Shown here: positions 22,690-25,600 of the stretch, in pieces
How positions within the stretch are numbered: the stretch's first letter is position 1
How the letters are laid out: each line of letters starts with the position of its first letter
Assembly: GCF_044647545.1 (NCBI RefSeq)
Contig: NZ_CP172818.1
Length of the DNA stretch: 64,000 bases
Strand: one strand, 5' to 3'
Source: Escherichia coli
GTDB lineage: Bacteria > Pseudomonadota > Gammaproteobacteria > Enterobacterales > Enterobacteriaceae
Position numbers: made by a program

Positions 22690-25600
22690 TAGCAATGCGA
22701 ATATTTGTCTACGGCAGTTTACGCCACAAACAAGGCAACAGTCACTGGATGACCAATGCCCAGTTACTGGGCGATTTCAGTATCGATAACTACCAGTTGT
22801 ATAGCCTGGGCCACTATCCAGGCGCAGTTCCGGGGAACGGAACAGTACACGGTGAAGTTTATCGTATTGACAACGCCACGCTGGCCGAACTTGATGCCTT
22901 GCGCACCAGGGGCGGTGAATACGCGCGCCAGTTGATTCAGACGCCGTACGGGAGTGCATGGATGTACGTTTATCAACGACCCGTCGATGGATTAAAGCTA
23001 ATTGAAAGCGGCGACTGGTTAGACAGGGATAAGTAATAATAAAAGCACGCCACCTTCGGGTGGCGTTGTTTTATGCGATGTATCTCGCGATTTTTTTTTG
23101 TAACTTTTCCATCTTTTGCTTTTCTCTCCGAGCCGCTTTCCATATCTGCAATCGCATAAAAAACTCTGCTGGCGTTCACAAATGTGCAGGGGTAAAACGT
23201 TTGAACGGTGAGTATGAGTGAGGTCGGCTAACTTCCAGCAAGTGGCTATGAACAGCAAAATGGTGGTCGGGTTTGCTTGTTCTTACCGTTCAAGCCTTGC
23301 AACCGCTGAGAATAATGATGGTGGAATAGAGAGTTTATTTATCGCGGGCATAAAAAAACCCTTACTAACCGAAGCCCGGCGTTCAGGGTTATTGCGCTAG
23401 AAGAACTTATTTATTCTTTGCGCGCTCGAAGGAAGCAACGATTTCAGCTTTAGCGGCTTCTGCGTTTTCCCAACCTTCAACTTTCACCCACTTGCCTTTT
23501 TCGAGGTCTTTGTAGTGCTCGAAGAAGTGAGCGATCTGCGCTTTCAGCAGCTCTGGCAGATCGTTAACGTCTTTAATGTGATCGTATTCTTTGCTCAGCT
23601 TTGTGTGCGGAACAGCAATCAGTTTCGCATCTTCACCGGCTTCGTCGGTCATTTTCAGAACGCCAACCGGACGGCAACGGATCACAGAACCCGGCTGCAG
23701 CGGGTACGGAGTCGGGACCAGTACGTCAACCGGGTCACCGTCCAGAGACAGGGTGTGGTTGATGTAACCGTAGTTGCACGGATAGAACATCGCGGTGGAC
23801 ATGAAGCGGTCAACGAACAGTGCGCCGCTCTCTTTGTCGATTTCGTATTTGATCGGATCTGCGTTAGCCGGGATCTCAATAACAACGTAGATGTCTTCCG
23901 GCAGATCTTTACCCGCAGGGACGTTGAGTAAGCTCATGTCTGTTTCCTTTAAAAATATGTGGCAAACAAGTGCCGAGTATTATAGCCAACTCGCGCCGAA
24001 TGTCTTCGCTTGTTTTCGTCTTCATTTTCCTTTTTCGCCAATTTTAAGACGGTATACAGAGCAGGAAAATCCATAACCGTAGCCGCATTTTTCATAGTGA
24101 GATGAAAGCGATTACAAACTTGTGATTAACGTTTTATTTACTTCTTTGAAGTGTGATGTAACGCAATCCGTTACATAACGAATTGTCTATAGTTTTTTCG
24201 CGAACATCTTTTCACCAATAATAATTACCCCGACGAGGACAACCCTATGTGGAAACGCTTACTTGTAGTCTCTGCAGTCTCGGCAGCCATGTCGTCTATG
24301 GCGTTGGCCGCTCCATTAACCGTAGGATTTTCGCAGGTCGGATCGGAATCTGGCTGGCGCGCCGCAGAAACCAATGTGGCGAAAAGTGAGGCCGAAAAAC
24401 GCGGAATTACGCTGAAAATTGCCGATGGTCAGCAAAAGCAGGAAAACCAGATTAAAGCGGTACGTTCCTTCGTCGCGCAAGGGGTGGATGCGATCTTTAT
24501 CGCTCCGGTGGTTGCGACTGGTTGGGAACCGGTATTAAAAGAGGCGAAAGATGCCGAAATCCCGGTCTTCTTGCTCGATCGTTCTATTGATGTGAAAGAC
24601 AAATCTCTCTATATGACCACCGTCACTGCCGACAACATTCTCGAAGGCAAGTTGATTGGTGACTGGCTGGTAAAAGAAGTGAATGGCAAACCATGCAACG
24701 TGGTGGAGCTGCAGGGCACTGTTGGGGCCAGCGTCGCCATTGACCGTAAGAAAGGCTTTGCCGAAGCCATTAAGAATGCGCCAAATATCAAAATTATCCG
24801 CTCGCAGTCAGGTGACTTCACCCGCAGTAAAGGCAAAGAAGTCATGGAGAGCTTTATCAAAGCGGAAAACAACGGCAAAAACATCTGCATGGTTTACGCC
24901 CATAACGACGACATGGTGATTGGTGCAATTCAGGCAATTAAAGAAGCGGGCCTGAAACCAGGCAAAGATATTCTGACAGGTTCTATCGACGGCGTACCGG
25001 ATATCTACAAAGCGATGATTGATGGCGAAGCGAACGCCAGTGTTGAACTGACGCCGAATATGGCAGGTCCCGCCTTCGACGCGCTGGAGAAATACAAAAA
25101 AGACGGCACCATGCCTGAAAAGCTGACGCTGACCAAATCCACCCTTTATCTGCCTGATACCGCAAAAGAAGAGTTAGAGAAGAAGAAAAATATGGGGTAT
25201 TGAGGGTTGCTATGCCTGATGCCGATTCGTAGGCCGGATAAGGCGCTCGCGCCGCATCCGGCGGTGGTGCGCTGAAGCCTGATGCGACGCTTACCGCGTC
25301 TTATCATGCCTACTGGGAGCACGCTTTACACCGGGGGAAACCATGACGACTAACCAACACCAGGAGATCCTCCGCACCGAAGGATTAAGTAAATTTTTCC
25401 CCGGCGTCAAAGCGTTAGACAACGTTGATTTCAGCCTGCGCCGCGGCGAAATCATGGCGCTGCTCGGTGAAAACGGGGCAGGAAAATCAACGCTAATCAA
25501 AGCATTAACTGGTGTATACCACGCCGATCGCGGCACCATCTGGCTGGAAGGCCAGGCTATCTCACCGAAAAATACCGCCCATGCACAACAACTCGGTATC

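What the first reader, a model, noticed from the sequence alone, without database searches (positions are those of the whole stretch)
23037..23406. Short ytfP-ppa spacer with no toxin-antitoxin pair where K-12 carries chpSB
From memory of the K-12 map, the chpS-chpB (chpBIK) toxin-antitoxin module lies between ytfP and ppa. Here the two genes are only about 370 bp apart, holding two terminator hairpins and no ORF resembling a PemK/MazF toxin or AbrB-type antitoxin. This looks like the empty site, so this strain is not K-12-like at this locus and chpSB behaves as an insertion/deletion polymorphism.
Basis: partly seen in the sequence, partly recalled or inferred. Interest (0 to 1): 0.4.

Follow-up and report, generated by a model that had tools for sequence, protein, structure and literature searches.

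The report
Decayed chpSB toxin-antitoxin scar
The short gap between ytfP and ppa lacks the K-12 chpS-chpB toxin-antitoxin genes, but it is the decayed remnant of that module left by two old deletions rather than a never-occupied site, and the presence/absence polymorphism is common and already published.

Summary
ytfP (22695-23036, +) and ppa (23407-23937, -) are 370 bp apart, and no ORF in the spacer matches a PemK/MazF toxin or a MazE/AbrB antitoxin. K-12 carries chpS-chpB at this position in an 886-bp spacer.

The "empty site" reading does not hold. Truly empty ytfP-ppa spacers in 25 other Enterobacteriaceae species are 93-188 bp and hold only the two terminators. The window keeps about 125 bp of the chpSB leader, chpB codons 7-49 (23200-23324; 72% identical to K-12, with a stop codon and a frameshift) and the last chpB codons.

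Two deletions explain the structure:
- A 201-bp in-frame deletion inside chpB, between TGGTGG direct repeats.
- A deletion of about 312 bp that removed the operator, the ribosome-binding site, all of chpS and the chpB start.

Among 5,426 complete E. coli genomes, 3,100 carry chpSB and 2,321 carry this scar; esiB (188 genomes) lay upstream of the scar in both esiB loci I examined. The E. albertii type strain has the same scar with the same junctions, so it is old. Pastorello et al. 2013 already described the three-state locus, without noting the remnant.

This is ordinary and of low interest. One loose end remains: the remnant keeps a stable ~100-nt hairpin that is also present in intact chpB.

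The parts
22695..23036 (+). ytfP (gamma-glutamylcyclotransferase family), the left flanking gene
   Evidence: 113-aa ORF. Pfam GGACT, E=1e-28. Annotated as ytfP in matching RefSeq genomes.
23047..23072 (+). ytfP intrinsic terminator (hairpin ACGCCACCTTCGGGTGGCGT plus T tract). It is conserved across Enterobacteriaceae and forms the left edge of the insertion hot spot.
   Evidence: Terminator scan. The 64-nt stretch 23037-23100 containing it folds at -24.5 kcal/mol, z=-4.9. The hairpin is present in all empty and occupied spacers of other genera. It is duplicated on both sides of esiB.
23074..23199 (+). Retained leader of the chpSB module, homologous to K-12 DNA between the ytfP terminator and the chpSB operator. 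It starts with a small hairpin and a T9 run at 23074-23099.
   Evidence: The left spacer as a whole (ytfP stop to GGGGTAAAACG, 23037-23199) is 86.3% identical to K-12 (L001 938-1099). This leader is found only in chpSB-bearing or scar spacers, not in empty spacers of other genera.
23199..23200 (.). Deletion 1 junction (AAAACG|TTTGAACGG). Relative to K-12 it lacks L001 1100-1411 (312 bp): the operator palindrome, the ribosome-binding site, all of chpS and chpB nt 1-18. This window also lacks a 9-nt filler (GGGACACGC) that most scar alleles carry here.
   Evidence: Alignments and motif positions. Among 5,426 genomes the 9-bp-shorter junction is shared only with HS-01 and BS-01; 1,623 genomes have the longer form.
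23200..23324 (+). chpB pseudogene fragment corresponding to chpB nt 19-145 (codons 7-49). It is 72% identical to K-12 chpB and carries an in-frame stop and a frameshift.
   Evidence: blastn E=1.7e-14. tblastn to ChpB residues 15-42, 50% identity, E=8e-6 against the spacer and 0.002 against the whole window. Window and HS-01 differ by single-base indels inside it.
23199..23295 (+). Long imperfect hairpin inside the remnant, with an outer 14-bp stem pairing 23199-23212 with 23282-23295. A hairpin with the same outer stem exists in intact Escherichia chpB.
   Evidence: MFE -42.2 kcal/mol, z=-5.0 in the window; -45.9 kcal/mol, z=-4.15 in K-12 chpB; absent from Enterobacter and Kluyvera chpB. The consensus structure shares only the outer stem. 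No covariation among scar alleles.
23319..23324 (.). Deletion 2 junction: the single remaining TGGTGG copy. In K-12 two TGGTGG copies (L001 1533-1538 and 1734-1739) flank a 201-bp in-frame segment (chpB codons ~49-115) that is missing here.
   Evidence: Motif positions and alignments.
23318..23329 (+). Last three chpB codons plus the stop codon (ATG GTG GAA TAG here, GTG GTG GAA TAA in K-12).
   Evidence: Alignments.
23352..23390 (-). Terminator-like ppa hairpin with a U7 run; the right edge of the hot spot.
   Evidence: Fold (the hairpin forms but z=+0.46). The segment containing it (spacer 283-370, i.e. 23319-23406) is 93-95% identical to K-12. An equivalent hairpin plus A/T run is seen next to ppa in other genera. 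The simple scan did not detect it.
23407..23937 (-). ppa (inorganic pyrophosphatase), the right flanking gene
   Evidence: 176-aa ORF. Pfam Pyrophosphatase, E=2.5e-60.

Best explanation
[quoted passage not shown] Two separate deletions destroyed it.

Deletion 2 is a 201-bp in-frame loss inside chpB between two TGGTGG direct repeats. This is the pattern expected for slipped-strand or short-homology deletion, and it removes about 67 of the 116 toxin codons.

Deletion 1 removed the operator palindrome, the ribosome-binding site, the whole chpS gene and the first codons of chpB.

What is left is the module's leader, chpB codons 7-49 and the last codons. These have since drifted, accumulating a stop codon, frameshifts and about 28% divergence from intact chpB. 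The scar has no promoter-like site and no coding capacity.

I infer, but have not shown, that the toxin was inactivated first (deletion 2), which then allowed the antitoxin gene to be lost safely (deletion 1).

The scar arose once and is old. It has identical junctions in E. coli, E. albertii and a third Escherichia lineage. It coexists with the intact module as a common polymorphism in E. coli, and recombination has shuffled the adjacent leader sequence between the two states. In the lineage of this window a further 9-bp deletion trimmed the deletion-1 junction.
For: - **Homology to chpB.** Window 23200-23324 aligns to K-12 chpB nt 19-145 at 72% identity (blastn E=1.7e-14). tblastn matches ChpB residues 15-42, with an in-frame stop and a frame shift.
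- **Collinear flanks.** The leader (23074-23199) and the chpB tail are collinear with K-12.
- **Deletion 2 repeats.** TGGTGG occurs at both ends of the 201-bp segment in K-12, and only one copy remains in the window.
- **Operator lost.** The palindrome GAGTTATACTTTGTATAACT is conserved in every chpSB-bearing locus from six genera and is absent here.
- **True empty sites are shorter.** In 25 other species the spacer is 93-188 bp and holds only the two terminators.
- **No coding constraint.** Window and HS-01 differ by single-base indels inside the remnant. No spacer ORF hits Pfam at a meaningful level.
- **Drift-like divergence.** The scar differs from its E. albertii counterpart by 13-14%, against 11-27% at third codon positions of ytfP, ppa and tamB.
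- **Same junctions across species.** E. albertii NBRC 107761 and strain SCPM-O-B-8794 share both junctions, while their tamB-ytfP flanks are only 90-92% identical to the window.
- **Complementary distribution.** 2,321 genomes carry the scar and 3,100 carry chpSB, out of 5,426.
- **Independent remnants elsewhere.** Citrobacter sedlakii and Enterobacter cloacae DSM 26481 carry other chpB or chpS fragments at the same locus.
Against: The remnant is much more diverged from intact chpB (28%) than the flanking non-coding DNA is (5-14%). Several differences come in blocks of 4-6 consecutive bases. Simple neutral decay of a K-12-like allele therefore does not fully account for the sequence.

The order of the two deletions is inferred. 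No natural intermediate allele was found. The two apparent intermediates, HH45 and HH97, look like assembly artefacts.

The origin of the 9-nt filler at the deletion-1 junction in most scar alleles is unexplained.
Confidence: 0.88

Rival explanations
1. One reading: this is a naive, never-occupied empty site, and chpSB was inserted into such a site in the K-12 lineage.
For: No intact chpS or chpB is present, and the spacer is short compared with K-12. chpSB occurs only sporadically at this site across Enterobacteriaceae, which is compatible with mobility.
Against: The spacer contains about 125 bp of the module's leader, about 125 bp of chpB and the last chpB codons. Unoccupied spacers in 25 other species are 93-188 bp and hold only terminators.
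Confidence: 0.03
2. The scar derives from a distinct, already divergent chpB-like allele or xenolog that once sat at this site, not from a K-12-type chpSB. Under this reading, present-day chpSB in E. coli is a separate lineage maintained or re-imported by recombination.
For: The remnant is 72-74% identical to every intact Escherichia chpB, while the flanks are 86-95% identical. Leader haplotypes are not linked to the scar or intact state: window vs EC7003 93.9%, SCPM vs E1V33 95.7%.
Against: No closer intact relative was found in 72,556 plasmid records, where the best match is 72.4% and is chpB itself. chpB of other genera at the same locus gave no blastn hit to the remnant at E<=1e-3. The block substitutions and internal stops show that much of the divergence arose after inactivation.
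Confidence: 0.12
3. The retained fragment is kept by selection as a structured element, for example a ~100-nt RNA hairpin acting as an insulator, terminator or small RNA between the convergent ytfP and ppa genes. That would explain why two deletions spared exactly this piece.
For: The hairpin has MFE -42.2 kcal/mol and z=-5.0, with 0 of 200 shuffles as stable, and a hairpin with the same outer stem exists in intact chpB (z=-4.15). When the K-12 hairpin is mutated at random with the observed number of changes, the mean MFE is -29. The observed value is reached in 0.7% of uniform trials and 0 of 3,000 spectrum-matched trials. One GU->UA double change separates the scar and intact classes.
Against: - There are no compensatory changes among scar alleles, and pairing is no better than in column shuffles.
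- The interior pairing register differs between scar and intact alleles, and the covariation term is only -0.73.
- The E. albertii copy is decaying (z=-1.4).
- Single-base indels separate the window from HS-01.
- No promoter-like site and no Rfam match were found.
- The ytfP terminator lies upstream.
- The simulation assumes a K-12-like ancestor.
Confidence: 0.07
4. The short spacer is an assembly collapse or artefact in this particular sequence.
For: None. Two unrelated public assemblies, HH45 and HH97, do show garbled sequence at this locus.
Against: The same structure is present in 2,321 complete E. coli genomes, including REL606, ATCC 8739 and ATCC 11775.
Confidence: 0.01

Closest known systems
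chpS-chpB (chpBI/chpBK) type II toxin-antitoxin module of E. coli K-12 (Masuda et al. 1993, cited from PMC7167474; ChpBK is a MazF/PemK-family mRNA interferase)
   Same: The chromosomal position between ytfP and ppa is the same. The leader DNA, about 125 bp of chpB and the chpB 3' end are homologous and collinear.
   Different: There is no antitoxin gene, no operator or ribosome-binding site, and no toxin ORF. About 67 codons of chpB and its first 6 codons are gone, and what remains has a stop codon and a frameshift. The module cannot function as a toxin-antitoxin system.
The three-state esiB / chpBS / neither polymorphism of the ytfP-ppa locus (Pastorello et al. 2013, mBio, PMC3735183)
   Same: This window is their 'both esiB and chpBS absent' state. 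They reported it in 32% of 47 genomes. I estimate about 39% of 5,426 genomes carry the scar without esiB, 57% carry chpSB and 3.5% carry esiB. The 39% assumes that every esiB genome also carries the scar.
   Different: The paper does not mention a remnant, truncation or pseudogene. In the two esiB loci I examined, esiB sits upstream of the same scar, between two copies of the ytfP terminator.
[quoted passage not shown] 2009, Genetics; cited in PMC7167474, details from my own knowledge)
   Same: Both are chromosomal type II toxin-antitoxin modules sitting in an intergenic region, variably present, and degenerating within the species.
   Different: The family differs (CcdAB vs MazEF/PemIK-like). 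Here decay occurred by two deletions giving one fixed scar that is shared across species, not by many independent inactivating point mutations.
Short-direct-repeat (slipped-strand / illegitimate recombination) deletions in bacteria
   Same: Deletion 2 has TGGTGG at both ends in the intact allele (8 of 10 bases match over the wider repeat), and a single copy remains in the scar.
   Different: Deletion 1 shows no clear repeat in the common scar form. A 9-nt filler of unknown origin sits at that junction.

Membership tests
Functional chpSB / MazEF-PemIK-like type II toxin-antitoxin module | Intact toxin ORF with a PemK/MazF domain (PF02452) | tested here: not met
   No spacer ORF hits PF02452 at E<=1, while K-12 ChpB hits at 1e-25. 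Only a 28-residue fragment with a stop codon is found by tblastn.
Functional chpSB / MazEF-PemIK-like type II toxin-antitoxin module | Intact antitoxin ORF with a MazE/AbrB-type domain (PF04014) immediately upstream of the toxin gene | tested here: not met
   There is no Pfam hit. tblastn with ChpS finds nothing better than E=2.5 in the whole window. The whole of chpS falls within deletion 1.
Functional chpSB / MazEF-PemIK-like type II toxin-antitoxin module | Autoregulatory operator palindrome and ribosome-binding site upstream of the antitoxin gene (GAGTTATACTTTGTATAACT, conserved in chpSB loci of six genera) | tested here: not met
   The palindrome is conserved in all chpSB-bearing loci. 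The window has 0 matches with up to 3 mismatches.
Pseudogene remnant (deletion scar) of chpB | Significant, collinear nucleotide homology to chpB at the orthologous position | tested here: met
   blastn 72% over 127 nt, E=1.7e-14, flanked by a collinear leader and 3' end.
Pseudogene remnant (deletion scar) of chpB | Disrupted reading frame and no coding constraint | tested here: met
   The fragment has an in-frame stop and a frameshift relative to ChpB. Close relatives differ by single-base indels. Divergence from E. albertii is similar to that at third codon positions of the neighbouring genes.
Pseudogene remnant (deletion scar) of chpB | No expression signals | tested here: inconclusive
   No sigma-70-like site is found in 22950-23500 and the operator region is deleted. 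No transcript data were available.
Naive unoccupied (empty) ytfP-ppa site | The spacer consists only of the two convergent terminators, as in species without any insert (93-188 bp) | tested here: not met
   The window spacer is 370 bp. Only its two ends, around 23047-23075 and 23343-23390, match the empty spacers of other genera.
Structured non-coding RNA | Structure supported by covariation, or a match to a curated family | tested here: not met
   There is no relevant Rfam match. There are 0 compensatory pairs among scar alleles and pairing is no better than in shuffles. Only one double change separates scar and intact alleles. Thermodynamic stability is high, but that alone does not define a family.

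The most novel reading that the evidence does not exclude
The ~100-nt hairpin may be a functional RNA or DNA structure. It lies inside the 5' part of Escherichia chpB and is the one piece that both deletions spared. In intact alleles it could throttle toxin translation. In the scar it could have been kept by selection across at least three Escherichia species, for example as an insulator between the convergent ytfP and ppa genes. Under this reading the scar/intact pair would be an ancient, possibly balanced, trans-species polymorphism and not neutral debris.
Probability: 0.07. Interest if true: 0.45.

Novelty: already known. Interest (0 to 1): 0.15.

Why it matters
The practical value is mainly for annotation and interpretation. 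About 43% of complete E. coli genomes carry an unannotated chpB pseudogene fragment at this locus, not a clean empty site. None of the four scar-bearing RefSeq loci without assembly problems that I inspected (HS-01, Z247, MS1170, A4) has a feature annotated there.

For this allele, chpSB presence/absence therefore reflects ancient loss from an occupied site plus recombination, not recent gain. That matters when chpSB is used as an accessory-gene marker in pan-genome association studies, such as the phylogroup B1 and healthcare-associated bacteraemia associations in PMC5422975 and PMC6096937. Those associations probably track which old haplotype a lineage inherited.

The two-deletion architecture, which I read as toxin gene first and then antitoxin gene with its control region, is a tidy natural example of how a chromosomal toxin-antitoxin module can be lost without killing the host. 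It does not open a new biological question.

Tried and rejected
- **MAFFT default alignment.** It misplaced the large gap and hid the remnant. Low-gap-extension global alignment and blastn with short words resolved it.
- **Rfam scan of 22900-23550.** It returned only a chance S15-leader hit inside ppa, at E=0.22 and far below the gathering score.
- **Promoter scan.** No sites were found.
- **Plasmid search for a closer source of the remnant.** It found only chpB itself at 72.4%, plus chromosomes mislabelled as plasmids.
- **HH45 and HH97 as natural intermediates.** PGAP annotates a partial PemK/ChpB pseudogene in both. I rejected them because both come from one submitter and carry G/C-rich garbled sequence (only 4 T in 139 nt) exactly at the deletion sites. 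These are most likely consensus or polishing artefacts.
- **Covariation tests of the hairpin.** There is too little variation, and no support for a conserved structure.
- **One wasted literature search.** The term setting was too loose.
- **Quasi-palindrome templated mutation as the source of the hairpin's stability.** I judged it unlikely because the inner helices are rich in G-U wobble pairs, which DNA templating would not create (inference).
- **Ramisetty & Santhosh 2016 (FEMS Microbiol Lett), on horizontal transfer of chromosomal toxin-antitoxin systems.** It could not be retrieved from the paper library; I only saw it cited.
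Full report
**1. The observation**

The window carries tamB (18913-22692, +), ytfP (22695-23036, +), ppa (23407-23937, -) and ytfQ (from 24247, +). Pfam confirms ytfP as GGACT and ppa as Pyrophosphatase. The ytfP-ppa spacer, 23037-23406, is exactly 370 bp.

Its four ORFs of 53-79 aa give no hit to PemK_toxin or MazE_antitoxin. K-12 ChpB and ChpS hit those families at 1e-25 and 1e-11. tblastn of ChpS and ChpB against the whole 64 kb finds no other copy.

A strong ytfP terminator lies at 23047-23066 with its T tract. The 64-nt stretch containing it folds at -24.5 kcal/mol (z=-4.9). A second small hairpin with a T9 run follows at 23074-23099. The ppa-side hairpin with a U7 run (23352-23390, - strand) is present and conserved across genera, but it is not energetically unusual.

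A K-12-type genome has chpS and chpB in an 886-bp spacer at exactly this position. The window is collinear with K-12 over 219-44609 at 97.9-98.6% identity. Within that stretch the spacer stands out locally, at 7.8% divergence.

**2. The site is not empty**

A gap-tolerant alignment and a short-word blastn show three collinear blocks of homology to the K-12 spacer:
- The left spacer up to the deletion-1 junction (23037-23199) matches the DNA between ytfP and the chpSB operator at about 86%. Its 23074-23199 part is the chpSB leader.
- Positions 23200-23324 match chpB nt 19-145 (codons 7-49) at 72% (E=1.7e-14). tblastn matches ChpB residues 15-42 with an in-frame stop and a frame shift.
- Positions 23319-23406 match the last chpB codons and the chpB-ppa spacer at 93-95%.

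Relative to K-12 two segments are missing:
- **Deletion 1** is L001 1100-1411 (312 bp). It removes the operator palindrome, the ribosome-binding site, all of chpS and the first 18 nt of chpB.
- **Deletion 2** is 201 bp, in frame, and removes chpB codons ~49-115. In K-12 it is bracketed by TGGTGG direct repeats, of which one copy remains at 23319-23324.

The palindrome GAGTTATACTTTGTATAACT is conserved immediately upstream of chpS in chpSB-bearing loci from six genera. It is absent from the window.

**3. What a truly empty site looks like**

I searched with YtfP against one genome per species and obtained 80 loci across Enterobacteriaceae. Their ytfP-ppa spacers fall into these classes:

| Class | Number of loci |
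|---|---|
| Short spacer, 93-188 bp | 25 |
| chpS-chpB at the same offset from ytfP (62-97% amino-acid identity to K-12) | 10 |
| The 378-bp scar | 2 |
| Intermediate spacer without chpSB | 8 |
| 1.6-3.4 kb of other cargo | 17 |
| ppa beyond the fetched flank | 18 |

The short spacers consist only of the conserved ytfP terminator, a few dozen bases and the ppa terminator. Only the two ends of the window's spacer match them.

The middle ~265 bp of the window's spacer is therefore module-derived DNA. The cargo elsewhere includes an Hcp-DUF6883 fusion, a methyl-accepting chemotaxis protein, a RelE/HTH pair and a YncE-like beta-propeller. The site is thus a general insertion hot spot.

Independent chpB or chpS fragments survive in Citrobacter sedlakii (ChpB residues 63-107) and Enterobacter cloacae DSM 26481 (ChpS residues 9-31).

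**4. Distribution and age**

Among 5,426 complete E. coli genomes:
- The chpSB segment is present in 3,100.
- The scar-specific segment is present in 2,321. The two sets are nearly perfectly complementary.
- esiB is present in 188. In the two esiB loci I examined, esiB sits between a duplicated ytfP terminator and the same scar.

Scar alleles fall into sub-haplotypes: 1,520 are at least 99% identical to the window, 100 are 95-99% identical and 700 are 90-95% identical. Most carry a 9-nt filler (GGGACACGC) at the deletion-1 junction. The window's shorter junction is shared only with HS-01 and BS-01.

The E. albertii type strain and strain SCPM-O-B-8794 have the scar with the same two junctions. 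Their tamB-ytfP flanks are only about 90-92% identical to the window. E. whittamii and three other Escherichia lineages have intact chpSB.

Leader haplotypes are not linked to the scar or intact state, which indicates recombination within the spacer. Divergence between the window scar and the E. albertii scar is 13-14%, similar to third-codon-position divergence in ytfP, ppa and tamB (11-27%). This fits neutral drift.

**5. Mechanism**

Shown:
- Two deletions separate this allele from the intact module.
- One deletion lies between 6-bp direct repeats.
- The residue is non-coding and has no promoter-like site.

Inferred:
- The in-frame chpB deletion inactivated the toxin first.
- The antitoxin gene and its control region then became dispensable and were lost.

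No genuine intermediate was found. HH45 and HH97 looked like intermediates, and PGAP annotates a partial PemK/ChpB pseudogene in both. They carry G/C-rich garbled sequence at the deletion sites and come from one submitter, so they are probably assembly artefacts.

One point remains unexplained. The remnant is 28% diverged from every intact Escherichia chpB, much more than the flanking DNA, and it has blocks of 4-6 consecutive differences. No closer intact relative was found in the plasmid collection.

**6. A loose end: the hairpin**

Positions 23199-23295 fold into a long hairpin (-42.2 kcal/mol, z=-5.0). A hairpin with the same outer stem exists in intact K-12 chpB (-45.9 kcal/mol, z=-4.15) but not in Enterobacter or Kluyvera chpB.

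When the K-12 hairpin is mutated at random with the observed number of changes, it rarely stays this stable: 0.7% of uniform trials and 0 of 3,000 spectrum-matched trials.

The case for a selected structure is weak, however:
- Only the outer 13-bp stem is shared, with one GU->UA double change.
- Scar alleles show no compensatory changes.
- The E. albertii copy is decaying (z=-1.4).
- There is no Rfam match.

I treat selection on this structure as a low-probability possibility.

**7. Comparison with the literature**

Pastorello et al. 2013 (PMC3735183) already reported that the ytfP-ppa locus holds esiB (15%), chpBS (53%) or neither (32%) in 47 genomes. [quoted passage not shown] They do not mention a remnant.

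chpB and chpS are treated as accessory genes in pan-genome studies. Ramisetty et al. 2016 list the K-12 distances as 211 bp from ytfP to chpS and 79 bp from chpB to ppa, which match what I see.

**8. Verdict**

The 'empty site' reading should be replaced by 'ancient deletion scar of chpSB'. The polymorphism itself is already known. The scar detail is a modest refinement. Interest is low.

Noticed in passing
L003:1334-3368 and L007:1-1412 (E. coli WP5-W18-ESBL-11 and A4); corresponds to window 23037-23406: A third allele exists. esiB (a Sel1-repeat secretory IgA-binding protein; 11 Sel1 repeats by Pfam) is inserted between two copies of the ytfP terminator hairpin, and the same chpB scar lies downstream of it. 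esiB is present in 188 of 5,426 complete genomes, including Nissle 1917 and ATCC 25922.
   Followed up: partly
L001:1411-1512 (K-12-type chpB nt 18-119): Intact Escherichia chpB carries a very stable ~100-nt hairpin in its 5' coding region (-46 to -50 kcal/mol, z=-4.15). chpB of Enterobacter asburiae and Kluyvera lacks it. It could affect toxin translation. I found no description of it in the papers I searched.
   Followed up: partly
L004:1027-1165 (E. coli HH45) and L089:~900-1340 (HH97): Two RefSeq 'complete' genomes from one submitter have G/C-rich, nearly T-free sequence at the positions of the two deletions. The sequence is weakly collinear with chpS and chpB, and PGAP calls partial PemK/ChpB pseudogenes there. 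These are most likely assembly or polishing artefacts and not natural intermediates.
   Followed up: partly
L008-L087 (ytfP-ppa spacers of 80 Enterobacteriaceae species): The ytfP-ppa intergenic region is an insertion hot spot across the family. Spacers range from 93 bp to more than 3.4 kb. Cargo includes chpSB (10 species), an Hcp-DUF6883 fusion, a methyl-accepting chemotaxis protein, a RelE/HTH toxin-antitoxin pair, a TonB-receptor-like gene with a YncE-like beta-propeller gene, and a recurrent 107-aa membrane protein with no Pfam match.
   Followed up: partly
L030:3843-4186 (Citrobacter sedlakii) and L036:~5600-5670 (Enterobacter cloacae DSM 26481): These are independent chpSB remnants at the same locus in other genera: ChpB residues 63-107 in a 344-bp spacer, and ChpS residues 9-31 at the end of a 1.87-kb insert. 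They suggest repeated decay of the module.
   Followed up: no
window 33620-33662: Besides chpSB, this is the only break in collinearity with K-12 within window 219-44609. The window has an intact cybC start (ATGCGTAAAAGCCTGTTAGCT...), where K-12 has about 150 bp of unrelated sequence replacing it. This agrees with my recollection that cybC is 5'-disrupted in K-12.
   Followed up: no
window 2001-2500, 5501-7000 and 12501-13000: These are local peaks of divergence from K-12 (4.8-9.4% per 500 bp, against about 1-2% elsewhere), around the yjfZ/ytfB, cycA-ytfE-ytfF and ytfI regions. They may be recombination tracts.
   Followed up: no
window 23199/23200: The 9-bp-shorter deletion-1 junction is shared only with E. 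coli HS-01 and BS-01, two ~4.5-Mb genomes with consecutive accession numbers (HS-01 is recorded as coming from a livestock farm in Indonesia). This places the window's strain in that lineage. HS-01 is 99.9% identical over 22600-24000.
   Followed up: partly
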